A stretch of DNA of 57,814 nucleotides. Source: Blastocatellia bacterium (GTDB taxonomy: Bacteria; Acidobacteriota; Blastocatellia; RBC074). The DNA lies in NCBI GenBank assembly GCA_044221525.1, contig JBGAPB010000003.1, positions 1-57,814 of the forward strand, read 5' to 3'. Each line of letters begins with the position of its first letter. Positions within the stretch are counted from its first letter, which is position 1. A model generated the notes under the pieces. The model saw only the letters and a program-made list of their open reading frames with translations, did no database searches and was not told the origin of the DNA. The translations under genes and the position numbers were made by a program. Below, piece after piece: positions 871 to 16,570 of the stretch.

Positions 871-1938
871 ATGCCTGACTTCAAAAATTCACATCGCTTA
901 TTGCTTGAACTAACGGTGGTTCTGGCAGCGCTCATCGTTACCGGATGCCGGAACTCACAGGAGAGTCAATTGCCACAAACTGCATTGGCACGGGTCGAAA
1001 CCGTGCCTCGATCCGAAACCATAGTCTCGTCGCAATGGGTGAAAGCCTTGCTGGACTTTCAAACATCTAATGGCAAAACGGCTCGCCCGGCAAATTACTT
1101 CAACGATCGAGCAGTGATTTTGGAAGCAAGCTGGGCAAAGCCTGAAAAAGCCAAAGATTATCTGGCTGGTCATATTCCTTCGGCAATTCACCTGAACACA
1201 GACGACGTGGAAAACGGTTTTCCGCGATGGTTGCTAAAGCCGGTAAACGAACTTCATGAAGTCATCGGCAAACTTGGCATCACTCACGAAACAACTGTCG
1301 TCGTTTACAGCAAACAGACGATTGCAGCAGCTCGTTTGTGGTGGGTGCTGATGTATGCGGGAGTTTCGGACGTTCGTTTTCTGAACGGAGGCGTTGAAGC
1401 CTGGACGGCGGCTGGCTTTCCGGCTGAAACGGCCATTGGGACTCCGCAGCCAGTCACGTTTTCAGCCAAAGTGCGCGAAGAGTTTTTGGCTACGACCGAC
1501 TATGTTCGCGCTCATCTTGGCACAAACAATGTTCAACTGGCTGACGTTCGCAGCCGCGAAGAATTCCTCGGCCAGATCAGCGGTTATGATTACATCAACT
1601 TCAAAGGCCGTCTTCCCGGTTCGATCAACATAGGAAATGCCGATGATTCAGCCAGGCTTTACCAAAACCCGGACGGCACGCTTCGCAACTTCGGCGAAAT
1701 TCAAACTATGTGGAATCAGGCCGGAGTCGAAAAGAACGGCGAAGTGATTTTTTACTGCGGCAGTGGGTGGCGATCCAGTCTGGCGTTTCTGTATGCCTGG
1801 GCGATAGGCTTCAAACACATTCGCAACTATTCGGACGGATGGGCTGGTTGGAGCACAAATTACATCGCAGATGACAACGCCAAAGGCGGAACTCCAGGCT
1901 GGCGGCAGCAACGCTCACCGAACCCCATAATCGAGTGA
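871..1938 (+). CDS. Rhodanese-family sulfurtransferase lipoprotein (YnjE-like)
   Basis: Lipobox-like IVTG|C. Tandem rhodanese motifs YLAGHIPSA, AAARLWWVL, LNGG..W, DVRS.EEF.G, GRLPGS and NYSDGWAGWS. Active-site loop CGSGWRS resembles the CGTGWR loop of E. coli YnjE. Confidence 0.85.
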   Translation: MPDFKNSHRLLLELTVVLAALIVTGCRNSQESQLPQTALARVETVPRSETIVSSQWVKALLDFQTSNGKTARPANYFNDRAVILEASWAKPEKAKDYLAGHIPSAIHLNTDDVENGFPRWLLKPVNELHEVIGKLGITHETTVVVYSKQTIAAARLWWVLMYAGVSDVRFLNGGVEAWTAAGFPAETAIGTPQPVTFSAKVREEFLATTDYVRAHLGTNNVQLADVRSREEFLGQISGYDYINFKGRLPGSINIGNADDSARLYQNPDGTLRNFGEIQTMWNQAGVEKNGEVIFYCGSGWRSSLAFLYAWAIGFKHIRNYSDGWAGWSTNYIADDNAKGGTPGWRQQRSPNPIIE

Positions 1939-1961: not shown

Positions 1962-3212
1962 TTATTTGCGAGTCCTGGATGATCGGGTTTGAGTTGATCG
2001 CGCCAAAGCGATTTCGCACAGCGGCTGATTTAGCTTCAACTCCACAGGAGGATCGTTCGGCTGGTTGCGGTTGTTGTCGGAATTGTCCACGTAAGCCGTC
2101 ACTTCGATTCGAGTGCCTCGCGGAAGCTGAACCGGCTGTTTGAAAAAGTAAGCCGGTTGCCAATCGAAATGGTAATCGCGGGCGACGATCAAAACCTCGA
2201 TTGTGCCGTCCGGGCGATAAGCCGTGGCTTCGACGGATTTGGCAAAAGGAAACAGCAGCGGACGAATAGAAATCGCTTCGGCAGTTTGAGGCACGATCAT
2301 CGAAGCTTTGACGACGTGGTTTTCAGCGCCAGCCGGAACAACGGTTAATTCCGGCGCAATCGTTACATTCCCGATAGATTTGCTTGCCGGAGTTTTGGCA
2401 AAGTAAAGCGCAACCCGGCTGCGGTCGGTCACGGCTTCGCCTGTGCTGTGGTAACGAACCTGCAAAATAATTTGCTCCCCGGGTTTTAACTGTCGGCCAG
2501 TTCCTTCCGGCAACCGAGTCGCCATTTGACCCGGAACCCACACGCCAAGAGTTTCTCCGGCTCTGCCGCAAGCAGACATTTTGACGTTTGGCGAAATCGG
2601 CTTGTTGCTGAACAAATGGAAAGATGCACTTTGAACAACCTCTCCGTTGCCTGGTTGAAAATCAATCGCTGACAGAACGCTGGACTCTTTCAGGTTGGTC
2701 GGCAAAACGACGCAACGAGTTTCGTCATCGCCTTCGGCATCCAGCTTCACTTCTTCGGATTGCAAAACCAAATCCGGCTCGCCCAACGACCAGCCACCAC
2801 CGTTAATCAAGTGTTCAATTTCATGTTGAGGGTAATCTTTGGCTTCTCCACGCGGAGCGCCGCCTTCAATCCACGAAATCAGCAATTCGACATTTCGCTG
2901 AGTCAAAACATAATCGTGCTGGAATCGCCCATAACCTTTGACGGCCTGGAAAGGCATCATGCGTTTTTCCAGGACTTCTTCCTTGATGGCCTTGGCCCAG
3001 GGGCGGGCTTCTTCATAAGTCGTCAGTGGAATATCGGCTTTGATCTTGTTCGGAGCGTGACAGCCCAGGCAATTGCGTTCAAGAATTCGAATGACTTCCT
3101 TGTTGAACATCACCTTTGTCGTGATTGGTTCGTGGGTGCTGCCCGTGCGAGTTGAAAGAAAGAAGGCGGTGAAAACTAAAAAAGCGATTACTGAAAGGCG
3201 ACGATTGGACAT
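1962..3212 (-). CDS. Secreted cytochrome c + PHM-fold protein, degenerate paralog lacking copper ligands
   Basis: Probable start is ATG at 3212 (GGAGG at 3226-3230) rather than 3284. Signal peptide, CLGCH heme motif, shared family motifs (RPWAKAIKE, WIEGGAP, YHFDWQPAY, DNSDNN). The HH, QxHY, HMH and EM positions read QS, QVRY, LLF and PL. Confidence 0.75.
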   Translation of the reverse strand: MSNRRLSVIAFLVFTAFFLSTRTGSTHEPITTKVMFNKEVIRILERNCLGCHAPNKIKADIPLTTYEEARPWAKAIKEEVLEKRMMPFQAVKGYGRFQHDYVLTQRNVELLISWIEGGAPRGEAKDYPQHEIEHLINGGGWSLGEPDLVLQSEEVKLDAEGDDETRCVVLPTNLKESSVLSAIDFQPGNGEVVQSASFHLFSNKPISPNVKMSACGRAGETLGVWVPGQMATRLPEGTGRQLKPGEQIILQVRYHSTGEAVTDRSRVALYFAKTPASKSIGNVTIAPELTVVPAGAENHVVKASMIVPQTAEAISIRPLLFPFAKSVEATAYRPDGTIEVLIVARDYHFDWQPAYFFKQPVQLPRGTRIEVTAYVDNSDNNRNQPNDPPVELKLNQPLCEIALARSTQTRSSRTRK

Positions 3213-3361
3213 AGCGATTATCAAACCTCCTATCTTAAAACAGTCCGAACATTGAAGTAACAACCGGCAAAACCAAACCGGCAACGACCAGAACTACAAG
3301 AATCCAGATGACGGTTTTAACGAACTTTTGATTTCTCATTGATTGGCTCTCCACCAATAGA

Positions 3362-3399
3362 ATAGGCCACAGATCAACGCGCGTGCAATCTGTGGCCTA
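3362..3399 (-). terminator. Stem-loop between the fourth and fifth array genes (terminator or mRNA-stabilising hairpin)
   Basis: Inverted repeat taggccacagat...atctgtggccta about 30 nt downstream of the 3431 stop. The U-tract is weak. Confidence 0.5.
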
Positions 3400-3430
3400 C
3401 AGGTTCGGAGCTTCAGCCCTTCAGGCTGCC

Positions 3431-4699
3431 TTATTGTTGACCGCTGGTAATCGCAGCAGGCTTTTCGACCGGTTTGGCCGGATTCGAATTGTCACTGTAA
3501 TAGCTCAACCAGCCAATCATCATTTCCTCCCAGGTTTGATCGCCCCACTTCACGTCTTTGGTCGGATCAGGGTTGTACTTGTTGGCTTTTGAGTTGTCGT
3601 AATGCGCCGTGCATTCGATCTTGGTTCCTTTCGGAATGGCGACAGGTTCTTTCGGCACGTAATAAGTCTGCCAGTTGAAATCGTACTTCGGCACGTTCAA
3701 CAGAATTTTTGAAGTCCCGTCGGGGAAGTGCGCTTTGACTTCAAAATCTTTGCCGCGCAAATGCATGTGCGGCATAAAGCTGGTGATGTGCGTGTCTTCG
3801 GCAAAAGTGTAAAACGATTTCACTTCGTGGTTGTCGGCTCCGGCTGGAATCTTGAAACCGGTGTTGAGCACTGGGCGCGTCAAGACTTGATGCTTTGGAG
3901 CTTCTTTTGCGTACTTCAAACCGATGGTTGTCACGTCGGTCATTGCTTTGCCGCTGGGCGTGTAATGCAACTGGAAGTAGAGAGTTGCGCCAGCAGGAAC
4001 TTTTTTGGCGAAGCCTTCCGGGAACTTGGCAGGTTGTTCGCCCGGAGCGAAGCCAGCCAGCAAGTTGCCATCTGTGCGCGTCGGATTCTTTGGGTCCTGA
4101 ATGAAGACGATGACGTGGTGCATCGCTTCGCGACCAGTCGAGCGAATCTCAGCCGCCGTTACCCAACGATCTTCCGTGAAGTTGGTAGGAACTTTGACAT
4201 ATTGGTAAGCGACGACCCCTGTTGCCGGGATTTTCTGTTCAGGAATTGAAAAGGTCTCGTCAGGTTTTCCAATGTTCCAACCGGCGACGAATTTCGGAGC
4301 GGGAGGCAAATCCTTGGCATTGCCTTCGACGGCTCCACCGTCAACCCAAGCGACAATCTTGTCAATTTCGGCTTGCGGCAACCGGCGGTCGTTGATCCAT
4401 TCGCCGTGATTTGGGTCTGCATGCCAGGGCGGCATGGCTTTGCCTGCCACTTGTTCTTTTATGGATTTCGCCCAGGGACGAACTTCCTTGAAGCTCATCA
4501 CTGAAAACGGCGCGATTTCGCCAGCGCGATGACATTCGGCGCAGCTTTTGAAAAAGATCGGCGCGATGTCTTTGCTGAAGGTGACTTCCTTGGCGGCTGA
4601 CTTGTTTTTGGTTTCGTTGGCGCTGATGGTTGGCTGCATGATTAACCCAACTGCCGCCAGCGCGAACAAGATTGCAAAGAGATTCAATGCCCGTTTCAT
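3431..4699 (-). CDS. Secreted cytochrome c-fused copper type II (PHM/DBH-like) monooxygenase, short form
   Basis: Signal peptide; CAECH; MHH (CuH); FQLHY (third CuH His); MPHMH and WEEMMIG (CuM His-x-His plus Met); YDFNWQTYY. Confidence 0.8.
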   Translation of the reverse strand: MKRALNLFAILFALAAVGLIMQPTISANETKNKSAAKEVTFSKDIAPIFFKSCAECHRAGEIAPFSVMSFKEVRPWAKSIKEQVAGKAMPPWHADPNHGEWINDRRLPQAEIDKIVAWVDGGAVEGNAKDLPPAPKFVAGWNIGKPDETFSIPEQKIPATGVVAYQYVKVPTNFTEDRWVTAAEIRSTGREAMHHVIVFIQDPKNPTRTDGNLLAGFAPGEQPAKFPEGFAKKVPAGATLYFQLHYTPSGKAMTDVTTIGLKYAKEAPKHQVLTRPVLNTGFKIPAGADNHEVKSFYTFAEDTHITSFMPHMHLRGKDFEVKAHFPDGTSKILLNVPKYDFNWQTYYVPKEPVAIPKGTKIECTAHYDNSKANKYNPDPTKDVKWGDQTWEEMMIGWLSYYSDNSNPAKPVEKPAAITSGQQ

Positions 4700-4727
4700 A
4701 ATTATTTCTCCAGATTGGATGTGTTGC

Positions 4728-5060
4728 CTAGCTCAATTCCAGGCAACCAAGTAAGTTGTCAACACTAAATTCAGCTATCAACTTGTAGTTAGTTTCAAGA
4801 ATCCGCTGGATATTGCCAGTTGCCGTATTGCCGCAACGCAGCCAAATGATCTTTGGCGGAAAACCATAAACCTGCGATAGCCACTCAAAATCGGCGTCTT
4901 GCGTCACGACGATAAAATTGTTTTCTTTTGCGTACTGCCAAATGATTTTGTCATCCCGTTGTGCCATTCCCAACAAGCGAACGTGAGTTGAACCCGGAAA
5001 CAGGTCCGCAAGTTGTTTAACAAGTCTGAATGAAAGATTCTGGTCGAACAACAACTTCAT
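4728..5060 (-). CDS. DUF5615 / PIN-like toxin (VapC45-like)
   Basis: Probable start MKLLFDQNLS at 5060. Motifs D..IW.YA, VVTQDADF and GFPPKIIWLRCGN are typical of this PIN-like family. Lies directly downstream of a DUF433 gene. Confidence 0.85.
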   Translation of the reverse strand: MKLLFDQNLSFRLVKQLADLFPGSTHVRLLGMAQRDDKIIWQYAKENNFIVVTQDADFEWLSQVYGFPPKIIWLRCGNTATGNIQRILETNYKLIAEFSVDNLLGCLELS

Positions 5061-5070
5061 TCTTCTTGCC

Positions 5071-5298
5071 TCACGCATGAGCGTATGCAGTTTGCCGCTC
5101 TCGCTGAGCGGCAAACTGCAGGCTGGCCAGAATATCTTCTTCAGTCAATTCAGGAAAGTCATCAAGAATCTCTTGATGACTCATGCCTGAAGCCAGCCAC
5201 CCAAGCACATCGGCAACCGCGATTCGCATTCCTCGAATGCATGGCTTTCCGCCACGCTTACCGGGTTCGATTGTGATGATTTCTTTTAGGTCAATCAT
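5071..5298 (-). CDS. DUF433 family antitoxin
   Basis: ITIEPGKRGGKPCIRGMRIAVADVLGWLASGMSHQEILDDFPELTEEDILASLQFAA matches the DUF433 pattern. Start is ATG 5298 or TTG 5310. Confidence 0.9.
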   Translation of the reverse strand: MIDLKEIITIEPGKRGGKPCIRGMRIAVADVLGWLASGMSHQEILDDFPELTEEDILASLQFAAQRERQTAYAHA

Positions 5299-5306
5299 AA
5301 TTTTGC

Positions 5307-6968
5307 TCAATTGTCGCTGCTTGCGGCAGGTTCAGCTTTCTTCTTTGCTTTAATCGTGCGATTGCCCAATTCGATGGCGGCTTCAATGATCTCGCCTTTT
5401 TCGTTTCTGGTAAAGGTCACGTAGTTCTGAATCTCGCGGATGAAGAATTTATTTTCAGCTTCGGGCAGCATTTCGATTCGGGGCTGTCCGGCAATTTCCG
5501 CAAAAAGTTGATTGCCGACTTGAACCACGCTCATCTTCATCAGTCCGGCGTCATATTTGCCAACGAAGGCTGCCAGAGCTTTGGCGTCCATTCCCGGAAC
5601 GGCTTTGCGTTCGGGGATGAAGTCAATGTAACCGATCAGCATTTCGTCATAAGTCGGATCGCCCCAGCGAACATCTTTGGTCGGATCGGGGTTGTATTTG
5701 TTTTTCGCCGAATTGTCGAAAGTCGCGGTGACCTGAATCTTGGTGCCTTTGGGTAGCAGTTTCGGCTGTTTGAAAGCGTAGTTGGTCTGCCAGCCAAAAT
5801 CGTAATTCGGCACGTTCAACAGGATTTCAGTTTTGCCGTCGGGATAAGTCGCCCGGTATTCCATTGCCGCGCCTCTGTAATGCATGTGCGGCATCAAACC
5901 GTAAACCGTAATGTCTTCTTTCGGTTGCCAGCAAGCGGTGGCTTTGTGCGCAGCGGCTCCGGCAGGAATTTTGAAGAAGATGTTTTCGATGCCGCGCTTG
6001 ATCATCCTCTTTTTAGGCGGCTCTTTTGAAAAAATCAGGCCGATGGTCGAGCGGTCTTTCTGAACCGAACCGGCGACTTTGGAGTAATGAATTTGGAGGA
6101 TCAGCGTTGAACCGGCGGGGATTTTTTTGGCCACACCGGGATCAAAAACTTCGGGCGGCATGCCAGGAGCATAACCTGCAATCACGTCTCCGGCGTCGTC
6201 TTCGCCAAATTTACCGTTGCATCCGTCATCGTTGACCTTGGCGTCCATCTTGACGCGACGCAGATAACCTTCGCGGAAGAAAACGGAATTCGGCCCGTCG
6301 TCTTCGTCAAACATTTTCTGCAATTCTTCAGGGCTGAGTTTGGCGTAATCCTTTCCACCAGGAGGCGCAACGAAAGCCAGAATATGGTGCACTACGCGGC
6401 GATTGCCTGGACGCGCCTCTGCCATTTGCACGTACTTGTCTTCGGTGAAACCAGTTGGTATGGCGAAGTACTGATATTCATCCGGCCCACTGGCCGCCAA
6501 AGTGAACTCTTCGCGCATTTCCAGAACCGCGTCGGGTTTGCCAATGCGCCAGCCTTCGACAAACTTCGGAGCCGCAGGCAAATCTTTGGGATTCCCCTCG
6601 GCAGCTCCACCGTCCACCCAGGAAGCTATAGTTTCAATTTCGGCTTCAGTCAGTCGGCGGTCGTTTTTGAATTCTCCGACATGCGGATCGGCATGCCAGG
6701 GAGGCATTTCCTTGCTGATAACCTTTTCCTTGATGGACTTGGCCCAAGGGCGAACTTCTTTGAAACTCAAAACCGAAAACGGAGCGGTTTCGCCTGCGCG
6801 ATGACATTCAGCGCAGGATTTGAAAAAGATCGGCGCAACATCTTTGGTAAAGGTGACGTTTCTGGCCGAAGTTTTTTTGGTTCCATCGGCTTGAATTGTT
6901 TGGGTTGTAAAGATCGCCAGCGCACTAAAAAGCACGCATATCGAAACAAATAAAATTGTCTTCCTCAT
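5307..6968 (-). CDS. Secreted cytochrome c-fused copper type II monooxygenase with C-terminal DUF3471-like domain
   Basis: Signal peptide; CAECH; VVHH; LQIHY; MPHMH; YDEMLIG. Tail LAAFVGKY...GNQLFAEIAGQPRIEMLPEAENKFF...VTFTRNEKGEI. Confidence 0.8.
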   Translation of the reverse strand: MRKTILFVSICVLFSALAIFTTQTIQADGTKKTSARNVTFTKDVAPIFFKSCAECHRAGETAPFSVLSFKEVRPWAKSIKEKVISKEMPPWHADPHVGEFKNDRRLTEAEIETIASWVDGGAAEGNPKDLPAAPKFVEGWRIGKPDAVLEMREEFTLAASGPDEYQYFAIPTGFTEDKYVQMAEARPGNRRVVHHILAFVAPPGGKDYAKLSPEELQKMFDEDDGPNSVFFREGYLRRVKMDAKVNDDGCNGKFGEDDAGDVIAGYAPGMPPEVFDPGVAKKIPAGSTLILQIHYSKVAGSVQKDRSTIGLIFSKEPPKKRMIKRGIENIFFKIPAGAAAHKATACWQPKEDITVYGLMPHMHYRGAAMEYRATYPDGKTEILLNVPNYDFGWQTNYAFKQPKLLPKGTKIQVTATFDNSAKNKYNPDPTKDVRWGDPTYDEMLIGYIDFIPERKAVPGMDAKALAAFVGKYDAGLMKMSVVQVGNQLFAEIAGQPRIEMLPEAENKFFIREIQNYVTFTRNEKGEIIEAAIELGNRTIKAKKKAEPAASSDN

Positions 6969-6989
6969 AGCTTCTCCCTCTATTCGTTG

Positions 6990-8678
6990 TTATTTGTTTT
7001 CGCCGCCAACGGCAGGCTTGTTGACCTTCTTGGCTTTGATCTTTTGCTGACCGAAACTGGCCTGCAACTCTATCACTTCGCCTTGTTCATTTTTGGTGAA
7101 GATGACTTCAGCGCCTTCGGCCTCCTTAAAGTAAAACGTCGTTTCGGACTGAGGAGTTGCAGGAAGAGCCGGATTATTGGGGAGAATAAAAAACAAGGTG
7201 TTGCCTTCGCGGGTGATGCTGATTTTCGGCCCCAGGCTGGCGGCGTATTCGCCTACGTAACTATCCAGCATTTGCGACGACAGTTTGGCTACAGCGCGTT
7301 CGACAGGTTTTGGACGGGCGTAATCCACAAAACCAACCAGCATTTCGTCGTAAGTCGGTTCGCCGAATCGAATGGTTTTGGTCGGATCAGGATTGAGTTT
7401 GTTTTTTGCCGAGTTGTCGAAAACCGCCGTCACAACCATCTTCGCGCCTTTCGGCAGGGCGACGGGCTGTTTCAAGTTGTAGAGCGTCTGCCAGTTGAAA
7501 TTGTAGTGCTCAACATTGAGCAGCGTTTCGCGTTTGCCATCGGGAAAAACAGCTTCGTATTTCATGGCTTTGCCGCGCACGTGCATATGCGGCATGTAAC
7601 CGACCAACTCCACATCACGGCGCAAAGTGAAGCAGGCATTGGCTGTATGGTTTTCGGCTCCGGCTGGTATGGCGAACAGGTCGTTGACGATCAGCAGAGT
7701 CTCAATTTGTTTTTCGACCGGCTGTTTGGCAAAGATAATCGCCATGCTGGTGCGATCTTTTTCGACCTTGCCGGTGGTCTTGGCGTAATGCATCTGGAAA
7801 ATCAGGTTTGATCCGGCTGGAATCTTTTTCGCCGTGCCGAGTGGATAAATATCCGCATTGCGACCTGGCGCATAAGTCGAAAGCAGCATTGAACTCCCTC
7901 CGCCGCCGCCTGAATTGCGACCGCCTTCGCAGCCGTCATTGATAACTGGAGCTTCAGGTTTGGTGCGATGCACGGTTCCGTCGGTAAACATCCATCGCCC
8001 GCGTTGGCTTTGAATAACGGAAATCGGATTGTGAACATCGCCGCCGTCTTTCTTCGCCTGATCCTGAGCCATCTTGAACATCATTGGCGTTTCGACAAAA
8101 GCCACTGCGTGATGCACAACTCGTTTGTTGCCTGGGCGAAATTCCGAAGCCTGAACCCATTTGTCTTCCGTGAAGCCTGTCGGCACGCGAAAGTAGATGT
8201 AATCATCAGCGCCTTTTTCTGCCAGAGTGAATTCCTGCGGCATTGGCAAAACTATGTCGGGCGTGCCTATTTCCCAAGTCGTTGCGGGATTGGGCACATT
8301 CGGCAAATCCTTCGGATTCCCTTCTTTGGCTCCGCCATCAACCCAGGCTGAGATGGCGTCAATTTCAACTTGAGTCAGTCGCATCTCATTTGAGAATTGT
8401 CCGAAGTGCGCGTCGGCATGCCAGGGAGGCATTTCGCGCGTCACGACTTTTTCCTTGATGGATTTCGCCCACGGACGCACGTCCTTGTAGCTCAAGACGG
8501 AAAACGGCGCGATGTCGTCAGGCTTGTGGCATTGGGCGCAGTTTTTGAACAGGATCGGCGCAATGTCTTTGGTAAAGGTGACGGTTTTAGGTGTCGTGCT
8601 GGCGTCGGTTGACCGCAGTGCAACCATTACGGCTGCGAAACAAATGGCAGCGATGAGTAAGAAGCGTGATCTGTTCAT
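6990..8678 (-). CDS. Secreted cytochrome c-fused copper type II monooxygenase with C-terminal DUF3471-like domain
   Basis: Probable start MNRSRFLL at 8678 (AAGGA upstream). CAQCH; VVHH; FQMHY; MPHMH; YDEMLVG; tail LDSYVGEY...ITREGNTLF...PQSETTFY. Confidence 0.8.
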   Translation of the reverse strand: MNRSRFLLIAAICFAAVMVALRSTDASTTPKTVTFTKDIAPILFKNCAQCHKPDDIAPFSVLSYKDVRPWAKSIKEKVVTREMPPWHADAHFGQFSNEMRLTQVEIDAISAWVDGGAKEGNPKDLPNVPNPATTWEIGTPDIVLPMPQEFTLAEKGADDYIYFRVPTGFTEDKWVQASEFRPGNKRVVHHAVAFVETPMMFKMAQDQAKKDGGDVHNPISVIQSQRGRWMFTDGTVHRTKPEAPVINDGCEGGRNSGGGGGSSMLLSTYAPGRNADIYPLGTAKKIPAGSNLIFQMHYAKTTGKVEKDRTSMAIIFAKQPVEKQIETLLIVNDLFAIPAGAENHTANACFTLRRDVELVGYMPHMHVRGKAMKYEAVFPDGKRETLLNVEHYNFNWQTLYNLKQPVALPKGAKMVVTAVFDNSAKNKLNPDPTKTIRFGEPTYDEMLVGFVDYARPKPVERAVAKLSSQMLDSYVGEYAASLGPKISITREGNTLFFILPNNPALPATPQSETTFYFKEAEGAEVIFTKNEQGEVIELQASFGQQKIKAKKVNKPAVGGENK

Positions 8679-8720
8679 TGCCTTTTCCTTGTTCAAAGAA
8701 TTCAGTTGGTAGCCCCAAAA

Positions 8721-8777
8721 GCAGAAAGCGGATTGGGAATCCAAAAACACCCCAATCCGCAATCCGCAATCTGCAAT
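8721..8777 (-). terminator. Hairpin plus heptamer (CAATCCG) tandem repeat between first and second array genes; possible internal terminator/attenuator
   Basis: 10-bp inverted repeat gcggattggg (8728-8737) / cccaatccgc (8751-8760), followed on the minus strand by tttctgctttt. Repeat caatccg-caatccg-caatctg at 8753-8773. Confidence 0.5.
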
Positions 8778-8783
8778 TGAAAG

Positions 8784-10448
8784 TTACTGGCCGCTGCCTC
8801 CGGCAGTTGCCTCTTTTGCCTTCTTAGCGCGCATATTACCGATGATGGCCTCTGCCACTTCGCCCTTTTCGTCTTTAACGATTACCAGATCAGTATCGGA
8901 GTTTTGCAGGAAGAACTGCGTCTCGGACATCGGGGAGAAAACCATCTTTGGCTGCATGGGAACTTGCACAACCAGATTGTTTCCTTCGCGTGTCACTGCG
9001 GCAAACACACCTGGGCGAACTTCGTACTTGCCGGTGTATTTATCTAGCACTTGCGGGTCGAGCTTGGCCACGGGCGGCATCTCAGTGACGTAATCAATGA
9101 AGCCCATCATCATCTCGTCGTAAGTAGGTTCACCGTGGCGAATGTCTTTGGTCGGATCAGGGTTGAATTTGTTTTTCGCGGAGTTGTCAAAATAACCCGT
9201 CACCATCAACCGGCTGCCTGCTGGCAAACGCTTCGGTTGTGTCAGCAGGTAGTTGGTCTGCCAGGCGAAGTCATACGCCGGAACGTTCAACAGAACTTCG
9301 GACTTTCCGTCTGGATAGAAAACTTTGTATTCCATCGCTTTGCCGCGCAAGTGCATGTGCGGCTCCAGAGCGTAAAGCGTGGTGTCGCGTTTGAATGTTC
9401 GGCAAGCCGTCACTTTGTGGTTCTCGGCTCCGGCAGGAATTTTGAAGAAGATGTTGGCGATGTTGTTTGTCGTCACCAAACGTTGCGGCGGTTCTTTGGC
9501 AAAAACCAGGCCGATCATTGAACGATCTTTTTCAACCTGGGTATTGCCCAACGTCTGATTGGAGTAATGAATTTGGAATCGTATGGTTGCGCCAGCCGGA
9601 ATTTTGCGCGCCGTGCCAGCAGCGTAAACGTCAGGATTGCGCCCCGGAGCATATCCGACCAGCATATTGTCTCCGCCGCCGCGACGACCATTCGGGCCAC
9701 AGCCGTCGTCTTCGACAGGCTGATCGGCTTTCATTCGCATCAGGAAACCATCGCGGTAAAACGGCGAATTTTTCAGAGACATTTCCATTAGCTTCTGGCG
9801 CTGCTCAGGATTCCCGGCCATCGTCGGAGCGCCTTTCGGCACTATGAATGCGATGATGTGGTGAACGATCTTGCGATTGCCAGGGCGGGCTTCTGCCATT
9901 GTGATGTATCGGTCTTCGGTGAAATTCGTCGGCACGTCAAAGTACTGATATTCATCGGCTCCGGGCTTGTAAGTGTACTCTTCGGGAATCTGAACGATCA
10001 TATCGGGCGTCGTAATTCCCCAACCTTCGGTAAACTTCGGAGCAGGCGGCAAATCTTTGGCGTTGCCTTCGACCGCGCCGCCATCCACCCACGAAACTAT
10101 GGTGTCAATTTCGGCCTGCGTCAGAGACGGGTTGTTTTTGAATTCGCCGAAATGCGGATCGGCGTGCCAAGGCGGCATGACTCGATTGGCAACTTTCTCC
10201 TTGATGGATTTAGCCCACGGACGGACGTCTTTGTAAGCCAGAGCCGAAAACGGCGCGCTTTCGCCAGGGCGATGGCACTCCGCGCAGCTTTTGTAAAAGA
10301 TTGGCGCGATGTCTTTGGTAAAGGTGACGTTTTTCCCGACGTTCTTGGTGTTGGTGTTGTCGGCTTTGGTCGTGGAGATGTAGGCAAATCCTACGACCAG
10401 GCTCAAGGCGATAGCCGTGACGAACGAAGAAATTCTCTTGATCCGCAT
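8784..10448 (-). CDS. Secreted cytochrome c-fused copper type II monooxygenase with C-terminal DUF3471-like domain (first gene of array)
   Basis: Signal peptide; CAECH; IVHH; FQIHY; EPHMH; YDEMMMG; tail LDKYTGKY...VTREGNNLVVQVPMQPKMVFSPMSETQFF. Confidence 0.8.
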   Translation of the reverse strand: MRIKRISSFVTAIALSLVVGFAYISTTKADNTNTKNVGKNVTFTKDIAPIFYKSCAECHRPGESAPFSALAYKDVRPWAKSIKEKVANRVMPPWHADPHFGEFKNNPSLTQAEIDTIVSWVDGGAVEGNAKDLPPAPKFTEGWGITTPDMIVQIPEEYTYKPGADEYQYFDVPTNFTEDRYITMAEARPGNRKIVHHIIAFIVPKGAPTMAGNPEQRQKLMEMSLKNSPFYRDGFLMRMKADQPVEDDGCGPNGRRGGGDNMLVGYAPGRNPDVYAAGTARKIPAGATIRFQIHYSNQTLGNTQVEKDRSMIGLVFAKEPPQRLVTTNNIANIFFKIPAGAENHKVTACRTFKRDTTLYALEPHMHLRGKAMEYKVFYPDGKSEVLLNVPAYDFAWQTNYLLTQPKRLPAGSRLMVTGYFDNSAKNKFNPDPTKDIRHGEPTYDEMMMGFIDYVTEMPPVAKLDPQVLDKYTGKYEVRPGVFAAVTREGNNLVVQVPMQPKMVFSPMSETQFFLQNSDTDLVIVKDEKGEVAEAIIGNMRAKKAKEATAGGSGQ

Positions 10449-10516
10449 TTTCTTTAGCTCCCTCTCTGCGATAGTTAGTGTTGAAATTCAGGGTGTAAGC
10501 CCGCGATTGCGGGCAA

Positions 10517-10545
10517 AATTTACGGGTAAACTCAGGCTTAGTCAA
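10517..10545 (-). promoter_or_regulatory. Putative sigma70 promoter of the monooxygenase array
   Basis: Minus strand TTGACT (10545-10540), 17-nt spacer, TAAATT (10522-10517), about 70 nt upstream of the 10448 start. Confidence 0.6.
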
Positions 10546-10583
10546 CCAATCTTGTCCAATCTGCTCAATAACTTCCCGCGATT

Positions 10584-10661
10584 CTGACCGACGGGTCAGT
10601 GTAATTAGTTGACCGGTCGGACAGTTACCGCCACAGAACTGAATGAGCGTTCAATCAGTTT
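10584..10661. promoter_or_regulatory. Cluster of palindromic operator-like sites
   Basis: CTGACC-gacg-GGTCAG (10584-10599), related TTGACC-ggtc-GGACAG (10609-10624), and near-palindrome AACTGAATGAGCGTTCAATCAGTT (10638-10661). Confidence 0.5.
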
Positions 10662-10700
10662 TTTTCTTTGCCAGTGAGTGAACAAGACGGCTTGCAGGTT

Positions 10701-13001
10701 TCACTCGCGGGGTTTCTTTTCTTGCCTGTTCCAGTCTGGCGGTTCGACACCCAGCAAGTGATGAACAAAGAAGTCGTAACGCTTTTTGTCACCGTAAGTT
10801 CCTCCGGACGTGTGGCTGGCTCCGGGAATTATCAGCAGATCGAATTGTTTATCAGCTTTGATCAGGGCGTTGACCACCTGCATTGTTGAAGCCGGATCAA
10901 CGTTTGTATCCAGTTCACCAAGAATCAGCAGCAGCTTGCCTTGCAATTTGTGTGCGTTGTCCACGTTTGAAGCAGCGGCGTATTCCGGCCCCAGCGGCCA
11001 ACCCATCCATTGTTCATTCCACCAAATCTTGTCCATACGGTTGTCGTGACAACCGCAAGCTGAAACGCAGACTTTGTAAAACTCAGGATGGAAGAGAAGC
11101 CCGCCCAAAGAGCTTTGGCCGCCTGCCGATGTGCCGTAGATGCCTACGCGGGTGATGTCGTAATAGCGGTACTTCGCCGCTACTGCCTGATGCCACAAGA
11201 TTCGGTCTGGAAAACCGGCATCGCCCAGGTTTTTCCAGGCTACGTCGTGAAAAGCTTTTGAGCGATTCGACGTTCCCATCCCGTCAACCTGCACGACTAT
11301 GAAACCGAGTTCCGCCAGCGACTGCATCGGGTTCCACGGCGTGAAAACCTTTGGCACGAATGAGCTGTGCGGCCCGGCGTAAATGTTTTCGATAACAGGA
11401 TATTTTTTCAGTGGATCGAAATTCGATGGCCGGTAAATAATTCCCCAAATTTCAGTCTTGCCATCGCGCCCCAGCGAAGTAAAAACTTCTGGCGCTTTCC
11501 AGCCAGCTTTGGCCAGCTCAGTAATGTCACCGTGTTCAAGCTCCGACAGCAGTTTGTTGTCCGCCGTGCTGCGAAGTTCTGAAATCGCTGGCAGGTCTAC
11601 GCGCGACCATGTGTCCACGTAAAACTTCATGTCCGAAGAGAAAACTAAGTTGTGATTGCCGTCGGCTTCGGTCAGAGCGGTCAACCCAGTTCCATCAAAA
11701 TTGATCCGAAAGTAATGAATGAAGTACGGGTCTTTGCCCGGATGCATTCCGCTGGCTTGAAACCAGATTTGGCGTTTTTCCTCGTCAACCTTGTCCACGC
11801 CGCGAACCACCCAGTTGCCTTTGGTAATCTGATTTTTCACTTTGCCTGTTACGCCGTCGTAAAGGTAAAGATGGTTCCAGCCGTCGCGTTCAGACATCCA
11901 AATGACTTCTTTGCCGTCGGCCAAATCGTTGCGATATTTCTTGCTGGAATAGGTAAAAAAAGTTTTCGGTTCTTCGCTGATGAATGCGCGTGGTTTGCCA
12001 CTTGCGGCGTCAACCTCAATTACGCGGTAAACCTGATGGCCGCGCTGGTTGTATTCAAAAGTAAAGGCTCGATTGTCTTTGCGCCATTCGATGCGTGAAA
12101 GTTGATAAGGGTTCGGGAACAGAACGTTATCAACAGCCAACGCCTTTTTGCTTTCAACGTGGAAAAGCATTGGCTGAGGCTGGTCCAGCGCATCGCCGGG
12201 CTTCGCATAATCCATTGCATAATACTTCGGCTGAGTTTGATCGGCGGGCGAGGACTCCACGTATTGAATCTTTCGACTGTAACCCTGACGCACTCGATAA
12301 GCTGCAATCATCTTGGAATCGGGCGACCAAACCAGCGAAGCCAACGCGTAATAATTCCCTTCCGATCCATCAAAGCTAAGCGCCGAGCCTTCGCGTTTGC
12401 CTTTGGCGCGAATCCAGACGTTAAAGTTATTGATCCATGCTTCCCACTTTCCATCCGGTGAAACTTTGGCTTCGGCCTGCGGAAAGTTGTAACGCGGCCC
12501 AGGAATACCAATGCTAAGCGGAATGCCGCCTCCGCGCCGTTGTCCACGCTCGTCAGGCGCTTTTTTGACCGAATAATCTGTCAGGTCACAGCGCCAGCGA
12601 GCTTCGGCAATATTGAATTCAATAGCGCGTTCGTCATCAACAAAGGTGATTTCGCTGAATGGAAGTTTCAGCGCAGATGGCTTTTCTCTTTCGTTGGGTA
12701 AAACAGCAATCAAAGCCTCGGCAAGCTTTGCGTGATCGAAGGCGGGTTTCTTTTCCAAAGTTTCGGCGTTGACGAGAATGAACTCATTGCCGCCTTTGAC
12801 GGCTTTGCGATACCAGAATCTGGTGGTTTTGCCGATCCAGTTGGCGGGTTCAGGCACGTTGACGGCCAAACCGACCATCTTGTTACGAAGCCCATTGGCA
12901 CGCTCGTAATCGGCCTGAGTTCCCTGCGCTTGGCCCAAAATTGGCAGCAGCAGGCTGAAACAAAAAACGGTTGATAACAAAAATGGGATTCTGCTTTTCA
13001 C
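10701..13001 (-). CDS. Secreted S9 family peptidase (dipeptidyl peptidase IV-like, DPPIV_N propeller + Peptidase_S9)
   Basis: GTG start with AGGAGG RBS; signal peptide; [12 protein letters not shown]; IYAGP; nucleophile GTSAGG; Asp in GELDTNV; His in PGASH. Confidence 0.92.
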
Positions 13002-15983: not shown

Positions 15984-16570
15984 TGGCACCTCAAAAATAT
16001 GATGGAAAGGCAGAACAACTTGCCCTAACCCAGTTTTGTTATTGGATAGAAGGGGAATTTTGCGATTTTAGGGTCGGATGCTTTACGGCGAGCCAACTAA
16101 TACGGGGTGTATCAGCACGCCAAGGCGGGAGAAAAAGGGCTATACGGCACGCGCTGTTTGGGCAAACAGACAATTACCGCGTCAGACAACTTACTTCAAG
16201 CCTAGTAATTTTGGGGGAAAACAGAAAATAACAAATCAGAGAGACGAATTGGCGAGAGAGAGCAACCGTCAATTCAAATTTTACAAGTGGTGAGAAGAAG
16301 GGATCAACAAGACGGGCGGATTATACTTAATGAGAAAGGCTTGTAAAGCGGTTTTTGCCAAGCGCTGAATTTTGCCCTGACTGAAGATGGCTGTCGTATT
16401 TTCAGAAAGGGCCCATCGTGAGGAAATAGTTTTCATCAAAGACCACTTCTAAGTCATTTGATTTGGACACCTTAGTCTGCCTGGCTTTTTGGGACGAAGC
16501 GGTTTTATCGCCAGCCAGTCCAGGGTGTCCCGTTTTCTGCGTCAGACCGACCTAAGCCATCTGGGTGTAT

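What the first reader, a model, noticed from the sequence alone, without database searches (positions are those of the whole stretch)
1962..10448. Tandem array of five secreted cytochrome c-dicopper (PHM/DBH-like) monooxygenases: candidate uncharacterised periplasmic oxidation system
Seen: five co-oriented paralogs under one promoter, each with a signal peptide, an N-terminal CxxCH followed by MPPW/MMPF (likely distal heme Met), and a two-subdomain module. Four carry HH, Q-x-H-Y, P-H-M-H and (D/E)EM in the same order. Known: this is the CuH (His,His,His) / CuM (His-x-His,Met) ligand set of peptidylglycine alpha-hydroxylating monooxygenase and dopamine beta-monooxygenase, which use ascorbate as reductant. 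Inference: the fused heme c replaces ascorbate and wires the Cu centre to periplasmic electron carriers, and the paralogs are a substrate-diversified set of extracytoplasmic hydroxylases. I know of no biochemical characterisation of such bacterial heme-c fusions, but cannot check the literature here.
Basis: partly seen in the sequence, partly recalled or inferred. Interest (0 to 1): 0.88.

Follow-up and report, generated by a model that had tools for sequence, protein, structure and literature searches.

The report
Bacterial heme-tethered PHM/DBH-like copper monooxygenase array
Five neighbouring genes of a soil/wastewater acidobacterium encode secreted proteins that join a c-type cytochrome to the two-copper catalytic core known from the animal enzymes that make amidated peptide hormones and noradrenaline; they belong to a very large bacterial family that nobody seems to have studied at the bench.

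Summary
The sequence features are real. Five minus-strand paralogs (A 8784-10448, B 6990-8678, C 5307-6968, D 3431-4699, E 1962-3212) each have a signal-peptide-like N-terminus, CxxCH and an invariant Met. A-D carry HH, QxHY, PHMH and (D/E)EM.

A family profile aligns all six residues with the copper ligands of human DBH (E 2.7e-8). A confident model of D (pLDDT 90.3) matches DBH and PHM at Z 21-23; the next fold scores Z 9.

- A DUF433/DUF5615 toxin-antitoxin-like pair interrupts the array.
- A single promoter is not shown.
- E is not a decaying copy. It belongs to a conserved copper-ligand-less subfamily, which follows a D-type gene in seven genomes.
- The family is not special to this locus: 17,819 cluster representatives, 13 copies in this genome, a patchy spread across Acidobacteriota, Planctomycetota and Verrucomicrobiota, and no conserved partner gene.

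Ten literature searches found no characterised bacterial member.

The best reading is periplasmic heme-c-fed dicopper monooxygenases with unknown substrates. Homology is solid, but catalysis and the electron route are inferred. This is a new variant of a known kind, of high interest.

The parts
8784..10448 (-). Paralog A, 554 aa: signal-peptide-like N-terminus, cytochrome c module, PHM/DBH-like two-domain core, C-terminal DUF3471-like domain
   Evidence: ORF. Pfam: Cu2_monoox_C 26.3 bits (cut-off 23), DUF3471 28.8 (cut-off 29.3), Cytochrome_CBB3 21.7 (cut-off 27). Motifs: CAECH nt 10272-10286, MPPW 10167-10178, VHH 9858-9866, QIHY 9564-9575, PHMH 9351-9362, DEMM 9108-9119.
6990..8678 (-). Paralog B, 562 aa from the ATG at 8678 (the ORF is open to 8762): same architecture as A
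   Evidence: Pfam: Cu2_monoox_C 39.8 bits covering profile positions 8-153 of 157, DUF3471 30.5 bits (over cut-off). Motifs: CAQCH 8526-8540, MPPW 8421-8432, VHH 8109-8117, QMHY 7785-7796, PHMH 7581-7592, DEML 7338-7349.
5307..6968 (-). Paralog C, 553 aa: same architecture as A
   Evidence: Pfam: Cu2_monoox_C 22.5 bits (just under cut-off 23), DUF3471 28.5. Motifs: CAECH 6801-6815, MPPW 6696-6707, VHH 6384-6392, QIHY 6084-6095, PHMH 5880-5891, DEML 5637-5648.
5071..5310 (-). DUF433 gene (antitoxin-like), inserted in the array; not a family member
   Evidence: Pfam DUF433 89.7 bits, cut-off 23.6. Overlaps the stop of C by 4 nt. Absent from the arrays in L008, L010, L011 and L087.
4728..5114 (-). 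DUF5615 / PIN-like gene (toxin-like), inserted in the array; probable start near 5060
   Evidence: Pfam DUF5615 123.3 bits, cut-off 23.8; PIN_10 18.6 bits.
3431..4699 (-). Paralog D, 422 aa: minimal form (cytochrome c module plus PHM/DBH-like core, no C-terminal domain); this is the protein that was modelled
   Evidence: Pfam Cu2_monoox_C 25.1 bits. AF2 model with alignment A2: pLDDT 90.3, pTM 0.84. DBH 4zel Z 22.9, and PHM 6ala Z 22.3 with rmsd 2.6 over 249 residues. Motifs: CAECH 4529-4543, MPPW 4424-4435, MHH 4115-4123, QLHY 3962-3973, PHMH 3761-3772, EEMM 3518-3529.
1962..3212 (-). Paralog E, 416 aa from the ATG at 3212 (the ORF is open to 3284): heme motif kept, all copper-ligand motifs replaced; member of a conserved 'E-type' subfamily
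   Evidence: CLGCH 3057-3071 and MMPF 2949-2960 are kept. QVRY 2451-2462, PLLF 2250-2261 and CEIA 2007-2018 stand in place of the ligand motifs, and there is no HH. HEPITT 3117-3134 follows the hydrophobic N-terminus directly. No Pfam copper-domain hit. The top 120 relatives are at least 57% identical: 120 of 120 have CxxCH, 0 of 120 have HH, PHxH..G or a C-terminal EEM, and 108 of 120 have HEP[IV][TS].
10449..10700 (-). 252-bp intergenic region upstream of A with one promoter-like match (10545-10517)
   Evidence: TTGACT-17-TAAATT, 9 of 12 matches. This is a consensus match only, and the number of such sites in the region is not above the shuffled expectation.

Best explanation
A-D are exported enzymes in which a mono-heme c-type cytochrome domain is fused to the N-terminus of a PHM/DBH-type 'non-coupled' two-copper monooxygenase core.

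Proposed mechanism (inferred):
- The heme c domain is matured in the periplasm by the System II machinery.
- It takes single electrons from periplasmic carriers and passes them to the three-His CuH site.
- The His-x-His/Met CuM site binds O2 and hydroxylates a C-H bond of an extracytoplasmic substrate.
- The tethered heme therefore does the job that ascorbate does for the animal enzymes.

The substrate is unknown and is not peptidyl-glycine in the PHM sense. The tandem array is a lineage-specific expansion of a very large family, and the copies differ in an insertion in the N-domain and in a C-terminal DUF3471-like domain.

E is a conserved copper-ligand-less relative that keeps the heme. It most likely works as an accessory cytochrome or scaffold next to the D-type enzyme, not as a catalyst.

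Shown: homology, fold, ligand conservation, export signals, the presence of heme-attachment genes, and the size and spread of the family.
Inferred: copper and heme occupancy, the electron path, O2 chemistry, the role of E, and diversification of substrates.
For: Homology and fold:
- Pfam Cu2_monoox_C is over cut-off in A, B and D, and 0.5 bit under in C.
- A paralog on contig C357 also matches the N-terminal model Cu2_monooxygen, at 27.7 bits against a cut-off of 30.
- The 49-sequence profile A2 hits PHM (1opm/1phm) at E 1e-9 and DBH at 2.4e-8. The alignment places VHH on VHH, QvHY on QVHY and PHmHlrGk on HTHHLGK.
- The 120-sequence profile A4 hits DBH 4zel at E 2.7e-8. The alignment also places eEM on EEM.
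- The model of D has pLDDT 90.3.
- In Foldseek, the 26 rows listed at ranks 1-31 are all PHM or DBH, with E down to 3.7e-14.
- In VIA, 26 PHM/DBH entries score Z 17.8-22.9, and the next family (PNGase F) scores Z 9.3.

Conservation:
- CxxCH, the Met-Pro of MPPW, HH, the His of QxHY and E-M are invariant in 120 of 120 sequences that are 31-57% identical to B.
- 12 of 13 paralogs in this genome keep every motif.

Export and heme attachment:
- The N-termini look like signal peptides.
- The genome has ResB and CcsA/ResC genes.

Cytochrome c identity:
- Cytochrome c models are over cut-off in relatives, at 37.1 and 34.1 bits.

Self-contained design:
- No neighbour gene family occurs in more than 10 of 80 related loci.

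Presence in RNA libraries:
- Contigs from metatranscriptome libraries of 3 studies lie on all five genes, and one contig bridges the A/B junction. This is weak evidence, because contigs cannot prove transcription.
Against: - No copper, heme or activity data exist for any member that I could find.
- I could not obtain model coordinates. The convergence of the ligands into two sites and the heme-CuH distance therefore rest on homology only.
- The window's own cytochrome c Pfam scores are below cut-off: 17.1-21.7 against 27.
- The Pfam N-domain model does not hit the five proteins at E <= 0.01.
- Many relatives carry an extra N-terminal AhpC/TSA-like domain: 9 of 10 long relatives scanned. That domain has a single GTxCP cysteine. 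It hints at peroxide or thiol chemistry that a plain monooxygenase model does not explain.
- One paralog elsewhere in the genome lies behind an ECF sigma factor and a Metal_resist gene. That would also fit a stress or metal role.
- The residue aligned with the peptide-carboxylate-binding Arg of PHM is not Arg, so the animal substrates give no guide.
Confidence: 0.6

Rival explanations
1. The proteins are electron sinks rather than monooxygenases. The heme c feeds the copper sites to reduce O2, H2O2, superoxide or a nitrogen oxide in the periplasm, for detoxification or as an auxiliary oxidase, and no organic substrate is hydroxylated.
For: - 9 of 10 long relatives scanned have a fused AhpC/TSA-Redoxin domain. 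It has a peroxiredoxin-like single Cys rather than a CxxC.
- One paralog in the own genome follows an ECF sigma factor, a putative anti-sigma gene and a Metal_resist gene.
- There is no conserved substrate-supplying or product-using neighbour.
- PHM crystals bind nitrite, azide and CO at copper, going by the titles of the PDB entries listed.
Against: - The complete ligand set, and the Gln of QxHY, are the ones used by enzymes whose O2 reduction is tightly coupled to C-H hydroxylation (established knowledge of PHM/DBH).
- Relatives carry varied C-terminal substrate-type domains: alpha/beta hydrolase, GDSL lipase, CBM48 and IPT/TIG. Together with the many divergent paralogs per genome (13, 17 and 32), this looks like diversification over substrates, which a single small-molecule reductase would not need.
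Confidence: 0.2
2. They are true bacterial peptidylglycine alpha-hydroxylating enzymes. They oxidise C-terminal glycine of exported peptides for amidation or oxidative peptide breakdown, working with peptidases such as the DPP IV-like enzyme encoded upstream.
For: - PHM ties with DBH as the best sequence and structure match.
- An S9/DPP IV peptidase gene lies 252 bp upstream on the same strand.
- One relative has a fused S9/S33-type hydrolase domain (P0134).
Against: - The position aligned with PHM's carboxylate-binding Arg, two residues before the first His of HxH, is Leu/Met in the profile and E or M in A-D.
- DBH, which does not act on peptides, scores equally well.
- No neighbour family is found in more than 10 of 80 related loci, so the peptidase neighbourhood is not conserved.
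- I did not look for a PAL-type lyase partner.
Confidence: 0.08
3. They are non-catalytic copper- and heme-binding proteins that buffer or sense periplasmic copper or redox state. The PHM-like core serves only as a metal-binding scaffold.
For: - E-type proteins show that the scaffold is kept under selection without the copper sites.
- One paralog lies next to a Metal_resist gene.
Against: - Strict invariance of six ligands arranged as two distinct sites, plus the bridging Gln, in 120 of 120 relatives is what a catalytic centre shows.
- Copper buffering proteins normally use Met- or His-rich motifs, not this geometry (established knowledge).
- Thirteen to 32 copies per genome are not expected for a sensor.
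Confidence: 0.07

Closest known systems
Peptidylglycine alpha-hydroxylating monooxygenase (PHM, catalytic core of PAM; PDB 1phm, 1opm, 6ala)
   Same: - Two-domain beta-sandwich fold: Z 17.8-22.3, rmsd 2.6-4.0 over 229-261 residues.
- The HH, QxHY and HxH..GK motifs align.
- The Pfam C-terminal domain model matches.
   Different: - Bacterial and exported by a signal peptide.
- An N-terminal c-type heme domain is present.
- D has a single non-heme cysteine, so the disulfides of the animal enzyme (recalled) cannot be conserved.
- The residue at PHM's substrate-carboxylate Arg is not Arg.
- Only 13-16% identity in the structural alignments.
- The reductant is presumably heme c, not ascorbate.
Dopamine beta-hydroxylase / tyramine beta-monooxygenase / MOXD (PDB 4zel)
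   Same: - Best structural match, Z 22.9, rmsd 3.0 over 274 residues.
- Best profile match, E 2.7e-8. The alignment covers VHH, xHY, HTH..G and EEM, that is, all six copper ligands.
- DBH is also a multidomain protein with an extra N-terminal domain before the catalytic core. That this is a DOMON domain is stated in the review passage read.
   Different: - The extra domain here is a CxxCH cytochrome c, not DOMON.
- There is no dimerisation domain.
- A-C instead end in a DUF3471-like domain.
- The organism and cellular compartment differ, and the substrate is unknown.
Copper enzymes with a tethered or partner cytochrome: cytochrome-c-fused copper nitrite reductases, and the cellobiose dehydrogenase cytochrome domain feeding LPMOs (both recalled from the literature, not seen in any call)
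   Same: The design principle: a heme domain supplies single electrons to a mononuclear copper site in an extracytoplasmic enzyme, which removes the need for a small-molecule reductant.
   Different: The folds of the copper domains are unrelated (cupredoxin; LPMO immunoglobulin-like). This is a functional analogy only, and I made no sequence or structure comparison.
PNGase F and related glycan amidases (PDB 1png, 7zgn)
   Same: Same double beta-sandwich superfold: Z 8.2-9.3.
   Different: The match is far weaker than to PHM/DBH. PNGase F is not a copper enzyme (recalled), and the family here keeps the PHM/DBH ligands.

Membership tests
Copper type II ascorbate-dependent monooxygenases (PHM/DBH/TBH; Pfam PF01082 + PF03712) | Two beta-sandwich domains in the PHM arrangement | tested here: met
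   Model of D has pLDDT 90.3. Foldseek ranks 1-31 are all PHM or DBH. VIA gives Z 21-23 over residues 144-414, and the next fold scores Z 9.3. Only D was modelled.
Copper type II ascorbate-dependent monooxygenases (PHM/DBH/TBH; Pfam PF01082 + PF03712) | CuH site: His-His pair plus a third His in the N-domain | tested here: met
   A-D: (V/M)HH and QxHY align with VHH and QVHY/VHY of PHM and DBH and are invariant in 120 of 120 relatives. E does not meet this: it has VVQS and QVRY.
Copper type II ascorbate-dependent monooxygenases (PHM/DBH/TBH; Pfam PF01082 + PF03712) | CuM site: His-x-His plus Met in the C-domain | tested here: met
   A-D: PHMH..G aligns with HTH..G, and (D/E)EM aligns with EEM of DBH. 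E-M is invariant and H-M-H is at least 90% conserved. E does not meet this: it has PLLF and CEIA. Metal binding itself was not tested.
Copper type II ascorbate-dependent monooxygenases (PHM/DBH/TBH; Pfam PF01082 + PF03712) | Pfam C-terminal domain model (PF03712) over its curated cut-off of 23 bits | tested here: met
   A 26.3, B 39.8, D 25.1. C scores 22.5, just under. E has no hit.
Copper type II ascorbate-dependent monooxygenases (PHM/DBH/TBH; Pfam PF01082 + PF03712) | Pfam N-terminal domain model (PF01082) over its curated cut-off of 30 bits | tested here: not met
   None of the five hits it at E <= 0.01. The paralog on C357 reaches 27.7 bits. The N-domain is nevertheless covered by the profile-to-PDB alignments and by the structural match.
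Copper type II ascorbate-dependent monooxygenases (PHM/DBH/TBH; Pfam PF01082 + PF03712) | Ascorbate as physiological reductant; 2 Cu per chain; O2-dependent C-H hydroxylation | not testable with these tools
   Needs purified protein. The fused heme domain suggests a different reductant.
PHM proper (peptidylglycine specificity) | Arg two residues before the first His of HxH, which binds the substrate carboxylate (residue role recalled) | tested here: not met
   In the PHM alignment the Arg of YRVHTH faces Leu of the profile. A has E there, and B, C and D have M.
Class I-type c cytochromes | CxxCH heme-attachment motif | tested here: met
   Present in 5 of 5 window paralogs, 13 of 13 genome paralogs, and invariant in 120 of 120 relatives.
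Class I-type c cytochromes | Distal Met ligand | tested here: inconclusive
   An invariant Met-Pro (MPPW/MMPF) lies about 36 residues after CxxCH. Ligation to heme was not shown.
Class I-type c cytochromes | Curated cytochrome c HMM over cut-off | tested here: not met
   In the window proteins Cytochrome_CBB3 scores 17.1-21.7 against 27, and Haem_bd 16.5-21.4 against 27. Relatives P0121 and P0124 score 37.1 and 34.1. Profile A2 also hits the heme domain of hydrazine synthase alpha (E 2.7e-4) and a mono-heme cytochrome c, 4rlr (E 0.0028).
Class I-type c cytochromes | Export and a heme-ligation system in the genome | tested here: met
   The N-termini look like signal peptides. ResB scores 162.1 bits, and CcsA/ResC-type Cytochrom_C_asm scores 140 and 119.3 bits.
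DUF3471 (PF11954) | Model over its cut-off of 29.3 bits | tested here: inconclusive
   B scores 30.5 (over). A scores 28.8 and C 28.5 (just under). Many close homologs carry the precomputed domain. A single-sequence PDB search with the C-terminal 105 residues of A gave only chance-level hits.
DUF433/DUF5615 (PIN-like) two-gene module | Both domain models over cut-off in adjacent genes | tested here: met
   DUF433 89.7 bits and DUF5615 123.3 bits. The genes are 10 nt apart, or overlap, depending on the start chosen. Toxin-antitoxin activity was not tested.

The most novel reading that the evidence does not exclude
The family is a previously unrecognised bacterial class of periplasmic C-H-hydroxylating copper enzymes powered directly by respiratory-chain electrons through a built-in cytochrome c. 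In role it would be a bacterial counterpart of the LPMO/cytochrome partnership, used to attack recalcitrant extracytoplasmic organic matter.

Within it, the E-type proteins are dedicated partners of the D-type enzymes. They keep the heme, have lost both copper sites, and have gained a new site built from the invariant first residue of the mature protein (His in HEPITT). That site could be a histidine-brace-like copper site or an N-terminal heme ligand as in cytochrome f. They also carry an invariant C-terminal Cys.
Probability: 0.18. Interest if true: 0.88.

Novelty: new variant of a known kind. Interest (0 to 1): 0.72.

Why it matters
PHM, DBH and their relatives are the textbook 'non-coupled binuclear copper' monooxygenases, and they have been studied only in animals. 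How electrons reach CuH, and how they then cross to CuM, is still debated.

A bacterial family with the same six ligands and a covalently tethered one-electron donor would offer:
- a natural system in which electron delivery can be triggered and followed optically;
- a source of robust, disulfide-poor enzymes for biocatalytic C-H hydroxylation;
- an unexplored oxidative activity in Acidobacteriota, Planctomycetota and Verrucomicrobiota, phyla that dominate soils and wastewater and whose extracellular chemistry is poorly known.

The scale of the family argues for an ecologically significant role: 17,819 representatives at 50% clustering and up to 32 matches in a 3.9-Mb genome.

The conserved copper-less E-type partner is a ready-made case of pseudoenzyme evolution.

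Tried and rejected
- **Single-sequence AlphaFold of D**: pLDDT 39.6, unusable. It was replaced by the alignment-based model.
- **Single-sequence phmmer of B against PDB**: only a chance hit, an scFv at E 0.49.
- **NCBIfam**: no family for five of the six proteins scanned, and one far-below-cut-off hit for D (16 bits against 200).
- **C-domain-only profile A3** (11 paralogs) against PDB: DBH only at E 0.96, so it did not place the Met ligand. The 120-sequence profile did.
- **C-terminal DUF3471-like part of A against PDB**: only chance-level kinase hits at E 0.41.
- **Promoter/terminator scan**: 5 promoter-like sites against 5.7 expected, and 15 terminator-like sites against 14.2 expected. It says nothing about operon structure.
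- **Conserved gene neighbours.** My ORF calling and clustering of the 80 related loci found the family in 70 loci. No other cluster was found in more than 10 loci.
  - I annotated representatives of four neighbour clusters by Pfam: cytochrome c plus PQQ-type propeller (10 loci), a mixed TPR/sulfatase cluster (8), a TonB-type outer-membrane barrel (7), and one with no family (4).
  - One 9-locus cluster consists of antisense shadow ORFs.
  - A functional link to the upstream S9/DPP IV peptidase is therefore not supported by synteny.
- **Complex prediction of D with E**: verdict 'no answer', ipSAE 0.05 and 0.01 against a mark of 0.32. This is neither for nor against binding.
- **Protein Atlas look-up of E**: only 'hypothetical protein' clusters of Acidobacteriota, some members with Cu2_monoox_C or cytochrome c hits. 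Nothing new.
- **RNA contigs**: 4 of 30 bins had no cover in run X16, and most bins had none in X17, X18 and X20. Contigs cannot show absence, starts, ends or strand.
- **Literature.** Ten searches found no paper on a bacterial cytochrome-c-fused PHM/DBH-like enzyme.
  - One search was badly designed: the phylum names swamped it.
  - Of one review (PMC12164859) I read only the passages found for four terms. It has no occurrence of 'prokaryot', and 'bacteria' occurs only in the context of RiPP antibiotics.
  - I did not ask for supplements.
  - A characterisation in a subscription journal would have been missed.
- **Considered and rejected:**
  - E as a decaying pseudogene. Rejected because 120 relatives at 57% identity or more keep an open frame, the heme motif and new invariant residues.
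  - The array as a recent local duplication. Rejected because D-type and E-type orthologs at 58-60% and 44-50% identity occupy the same relative positions in other genomes.

Full report
**What is in the sequence**

Between 1962 and 10448 the minus strand carries five long ORFs whose products are paralogs. In alignment A1 they are 50, 55, 51 and 31% identical to the first. I call them:

| Paralog | Coordinates | Length |
|---|---|---|
| A | 8784-10448 | 554 aa |
| B | 6990-8678 | 562 aa, counted from the internal ATG |
| C | 5307-6968 | 553 aa |
| D | 3431-4699 | 422 aa |
| E | 1962-3212 | 416 aa, counted from the internal ATG |

- All five begin with ATG behind a purine-rich stretch.
- All five have 2-3 basic residues followed by a strongly hydrophobic 12-residue window, as Sec signal peptides do. 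I ran no dedicated signal-peptide predictor.
- All five have CxxCH at residues 47-59 and, about 36 residues later, MPPW (A-D) or MMPF (E).
- A-D then carry (V/M)HH, Q-x-H-Y, P-H-M-H and (D/E)EM in that order.
- E has VVQS, QVRY, PLLF and CEIA at the aligned positions.

Two things do not hold as written.

*The array is not contiguous.* Between C and D sit a DUF433 gene (5071-5310; 89.7 bits) and a DUF5615/PIN-like gene (4728-5114; 123.3 bits). This is a toxin-antitoxin-like pair, and it is absent from the equivalent arrays of other genomes.

*'One promoter' is not shown.*
- Consensus promoter and terminator matches are no more frequent than in shuffled sequence.
- The gaps are 105 (A-B), 21 (B-C), -4, 10, 28 and 218 bp (D-E).
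- Short gaps are compatible with co-transcription of A to D.
- Contigs from RNA libraries bridge the A/B junction (7948-8841) and the DUF433-DUF5615/C junction (4828-5707). One contig covers the 5' part of E plus 182 nt upstream (2813-3394). Contigs cannot prove a single transcript, or even transcription.

**What the proteins are**

*Pfam.* Pfam finds the C-terminal domain of the copper type II ascorbate-dependent monooxygenases in A, B and D over the curated cut-off (26.3, 39.8 and 25.1 bits against 23). C scores 22.5, and E has no hit. A-C have a DUF3471-like C-terminal domain (28.5-30.5 bits against 29.3). Cytochrome c models score below cut-off (17.1-21.7 against 27).

*Profile searches against PDB.*
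- A profile of 49 family members (A2) finds PHM (1opm, 1phm and others) at E about 1e-9 and human DBH at 2.4e-8. The printed alignment puts the family's vHH on PHM's VHH, lqvhY on LQVHY and PhmhlrGk on HTHHLGK.
- A profile of 120 members (A4) finds DBH at E 2.7e-8. That alignment runs through VHH, xHY, HTH..G and on to eEM over EEM. All six copper ligands of DBH are therefore matched at the sequence-profile level.

*Structure.*
- An AlphaFold2 model of D built on A2 is confident: pLDDT 90.3, pTM 0.84. The cytochrome module forms three helices.
- Foldseek lists only PHM and DBH in the 26 rows at ranks 1-31, with E down to 3.7e-14.
- The second-look aligner gives DBH Z 22.9 (rmsd 3.0 over 274 residues) and PHM Z up to 22.3 (rmsd 2.6 over 249), spanning model residues 144-414. 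The next family, PNGase F, reaches Z 9.3.
- I had no access to coordinates. That the ligands converge into two sites, and how far the heme lies from CuH, rest on homology and not on measurement.

*Conservation.* In the 120 sequences of A4, which are 31-57% identical to B, these are invariant: the two Cys and the His of CxxCH, the Met-Pro of MPPW, both His of HH, the His of QxHY, and the Glu-Met of EM. His-Met-His is at least 90% conserved.

*Heme attachment.* The genome has the System II cytochrome c maturation genes: ResB at 162 bits, and CcsA/ResC-type matches at 140 and 119 bits.

**The family at large**

- *Size.* D finds 17,819 cluster representatives (50% clustering) at E <= 0.001, 11,021 at <= 1e-10 and 3,236 at <= 1e-30. 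A finds 7,972 proteins among the 8,000 candidates scored.
- *Names.* The sources call these proteins 'thiol-disulfide isomerase', 'mono/diheme cytochrome c family protein', 'DUF3471 domain-containing protein' or 'hypothetical protein'. One JGI name mentions the copper monooxygenase domain. Automatic annotation has thus seen the domains, but no function is attached.
- *Source organism.* The closest named homologs are from Blastocatellia and other Acidobacteriota. That points to a Blastocatellia-like source for the window.
- *Copies in this genome.* The genome is a bin of 395 contigs, 80% complete. It has 13 copies, five here and eight elsewhere, and 12 of the 13 keep every motif.
- *Control genomes.* PF03712 rings in 0 of 14 well-known control genomes.
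- *Spread within the phylum.* In an even sample of the phylum, 14 of 61 genomes (G000 included; one of them, G024, is flagged unpublished) have a match at E <= 1e-10. Match counts are 13, 17 and 32 in three genomes and 1-6 in the rest. The distribution is therefore patchy, with lineage-specific expansions.
They came from Acidobacteriota, Planctomycetota (including Rhodopirellula europaea), Verrucomicrobiota, Nitrospirales, Armatimonas, Methylococcaceae and others.
- *Habitat.* The window's DNA is held by wastewater, activated-sludge, bioreactor and plastisphere metagenomes. Twenty of the 24 listed runs hold it at least in part, and these belong to 11 studies.

*Architectures vary.*
- Of 150 representatives, 62 have the short N-terminus seen here, and 82 have at least 90 extra residues before the heme motif.
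- Of 10 long representatives scanned, 9 carry an AhpC/TSA-Redoxin domain there. That domain has a single Cys in a GTxCP motif plus a later conserved GC. It lacks the [WFY]CxxC motif typical of thiol-disulfide oxidoreductases (typicality recalled).
- C-terminal additions include ankyrin repeats, alpha/beta hydrolase, GDSL lipase, CBM48, EF-hands and IPT/TIG.

*Neighbours.*
- My ORF clustering recovered the family in 70 of the 80 related loci. No other cluster occurs in more than 10 of the 80 loci. The commonest is a cytochrome c plus PQQ-type propeller protein.
- The S9/DPP IV peptidase upstream of A is therefore not a conserved partner.
- One paralog elsewhere in this genome follows an ECF sigma factor, an unassigned small gene and a Metal_resist gene.

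**The fifth paralog**

E is not a wreck.
- Its relatives form a subfamily of their own. The best 120 clusters are 57-100% identical to E, are all unnamed, and have no precomputed Pfam domain.
- All 120 keep CxxCH. None has HH, PHxH..G or a C-terminal EEM. 108 have HEP[IV][TS] at about residue 26-36, directly after the hydrophobic N-terminus.
- In an alignment of 29 of them, His27, the CxxCH residues, Met85 and Cys399 are invariant, and His99 and Cys167 are at least 90% conserved.

Its position is conserved too.
- In L007, L008, L010, L011 and L082 and in G050 (L087), as in the window, a D-type gene (58-60% identical to D) is followed directly by an E-type gene (44-50% identical to E). That makes seven genomes.
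- In L012 and L019 an E-type gene closes the array behind another type.
- Arrays of 4-6 copies exist in L007, L008, L010, L011, L012 and L087. 21 of 70 loci have two or more copies.

The array is therefore an old, maintained arrangement: several long forms, then D, then E. A structure-prediction test of D-E binding gave no verdict, so a physical pairing remains a hypothesis based on gene order alone.

**How it most likely works**

*Shown:*
- exported proteins;
- a c-type heme motif with an invariant candidate distal Met;
- a PHM/DBH-fold core with both copper sites intact in A-D.

*Inferred from what is established for PHM and DBH:*
- CuH accepts one electron at a time.
- CuM binds O2 and abstracts a hydrogen from a C-H bond.
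- The Gln of QxHY belongs to the network between the sites.

*Inferred from the fusion:* there is no ascorbate in a bacterial periplasm, so the tethered heme c is the electron entry point. It would be reduced by soluble cytochromes or other periplasmic carriers.

The substrate is open.
- The residue facing PHM's carboxylate-binding Arg is Glu or Met in A-D.
- DBH matches as well as PHM does.
- The variety of paralogs and of appended domains suggests many substrates, but nothing here tests that.

The AhpC/TSA-type domain of many relatives, and the ECF/metal-resistance neighbourhood of one paralog, keep a rival alive in which the copper sites merely reduce O2, peroxide or nitrogen oxides.

My odds:
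- about 0.9 that A-D are heme-c-bearing homologs of PHM/DBH with functional copper sites;
- about 0.6 that they are monooxygenases fed through the heme;
- 0.2 for a reductase or detoxification role;
- less than 0.1 each for true peptidylglycine hydroxylases and for non-catalytic metal binders.

**Comparison with the known, and novelty**

The catalytic core belongs to the PHM/DBH superfamily by fold, ligands and the Pfam C-domain. It fails three membership features:
- the Pfam N-domain model;
- the PHM substrate Arg;
- the animal enzymes' disulfides, where D has one non-heme Cys.

It also adds a cytochrome c domain that no characterised member has. Functionally it resembles copper enzymes with tethered or partner cytochromes (cytochrome-fused nitrite reductases, and cellobiose dehydrogenase with LPMOs). 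That resemblance is recalled, not tested.

Ten literature searches and the passages read from one review turned up no bacterial member. The library lacks most subscription journals, so this is absence in what I could search, not proof.

I rate it a new variant of a known kind. It is of high interest to copper enzymology and to the biology of Acidobacteriota, Planctomycetota and Verrucomicrobiota. That interest is tempered because the domain composition is already visible in automatic annotations, and because function rests on inference.

Noticed in passing
window 4728-5310 (-): A DUF433 / DUF5615 (PIN-like) two-gene module, typical of toxin-antitoxin pairs, is inserted between paralogs C and D. 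The equivalent arrays in L008, L010, L011 and L087 lack it.
   Followed up: partly
window 1962-3212 (-); relatives P0271-P0390; L008:12025-13287, L011:13425-14717, L019:8686-10017: E-type subfamily: heme motif kept and all copper ligands lost. His27 (HEPITT, probably the first residue of the mature protein) and Cys399 (PLC) are invariant, and His99 and Cys167 are at least 90% conserved. This could be a new metal or heme-ligand site.
   Followed up: partly
window 10701-13001 (-): A DPP IV-type S9 peptidase (DPPIV_N 171 bits, Peptidase_S9 151 bits) lies 252 bp upstream of A on the same strand. No neighbour family was conserved across related loci.
   Followed up: partly
window 13158-29587 (-) and probably further: A long run of co-oriented genes for surface polysaccharide synthesis: two GT1/GT4 glycosyltransferases, a Wzy_C O-antigen ligase-like protein, Acyl_transf_3, asparagine synthase, a methyltransferase, two beta-helix proteins and a 943-aa Fn3-bearing protein. 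GC drops to 0.43-0.48 over much of 14-48 kb, against about 0.51 in the array.
   Followed up: partly
window 2-859 (+) and 871-1938 (+): The 3' part of a MacB/FtsX-type ABC permease gene and a two-domain rhodanese gene converge on the end of the array.
   Followed up: partly
L002 (G000:C266) 3746-6751: Another paralog of the same genome sits directly behind an ECF sigma factor, a small unassigned gene (a possible anti-sigma factor) and a Metal_resist (PF13801) gene. This suggests envelope- or metal-stress control of at least that copy.
   Followed up: partly
relatives P0121, P0131, P0134, P0135, P0147, P0194, P0200, P0229, P0258: Many family members carry an N-terminal AhpC/TSA-Redoxin domain. 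It has a single Cys in GTxCP and a second conserved Cys (GC) just before the cytochrome module, and it has no CxxC. The name 'thiol-disulfide isomerase' given by some sources probably comes from this domain.
   Followed up: partly
L087 (G050:C5) 10783-12420 (-): In G050 a 545-aa AhpC/TSA-Redoxin protein with a CPTC motif is encoded just upstream of the five-gene array. This is a single case.
   Followed up: no
L061:9228-11156, L029:7279-9096 and 8 further loci: Cytochrome c plus PQQ-type beta-propeller proteins are the commonest neighbours of family members (10 of 80 loci). They are possible periplasmic electron sources, but the association is weak.
   Followed up: partly
G000:C121:4700-6574 (L001) and G000:C326:18828-20339 (L003): The C121 paralog matches profile positions 208-324 twice within one ORF, which suggests an internal duplication. 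The C326 paralog matches in two pieces, which suggests an insertion between the two domains.
   Followed up: no
window 8784-10448, 6990-8678, 5307-6968: The long forms A-C share an insertion of about 45 residues between HH and QxHY that D and E lack. They also share two extra Cys (aa 250 and 346-349), which could form a disulfide.
   Followed up: no
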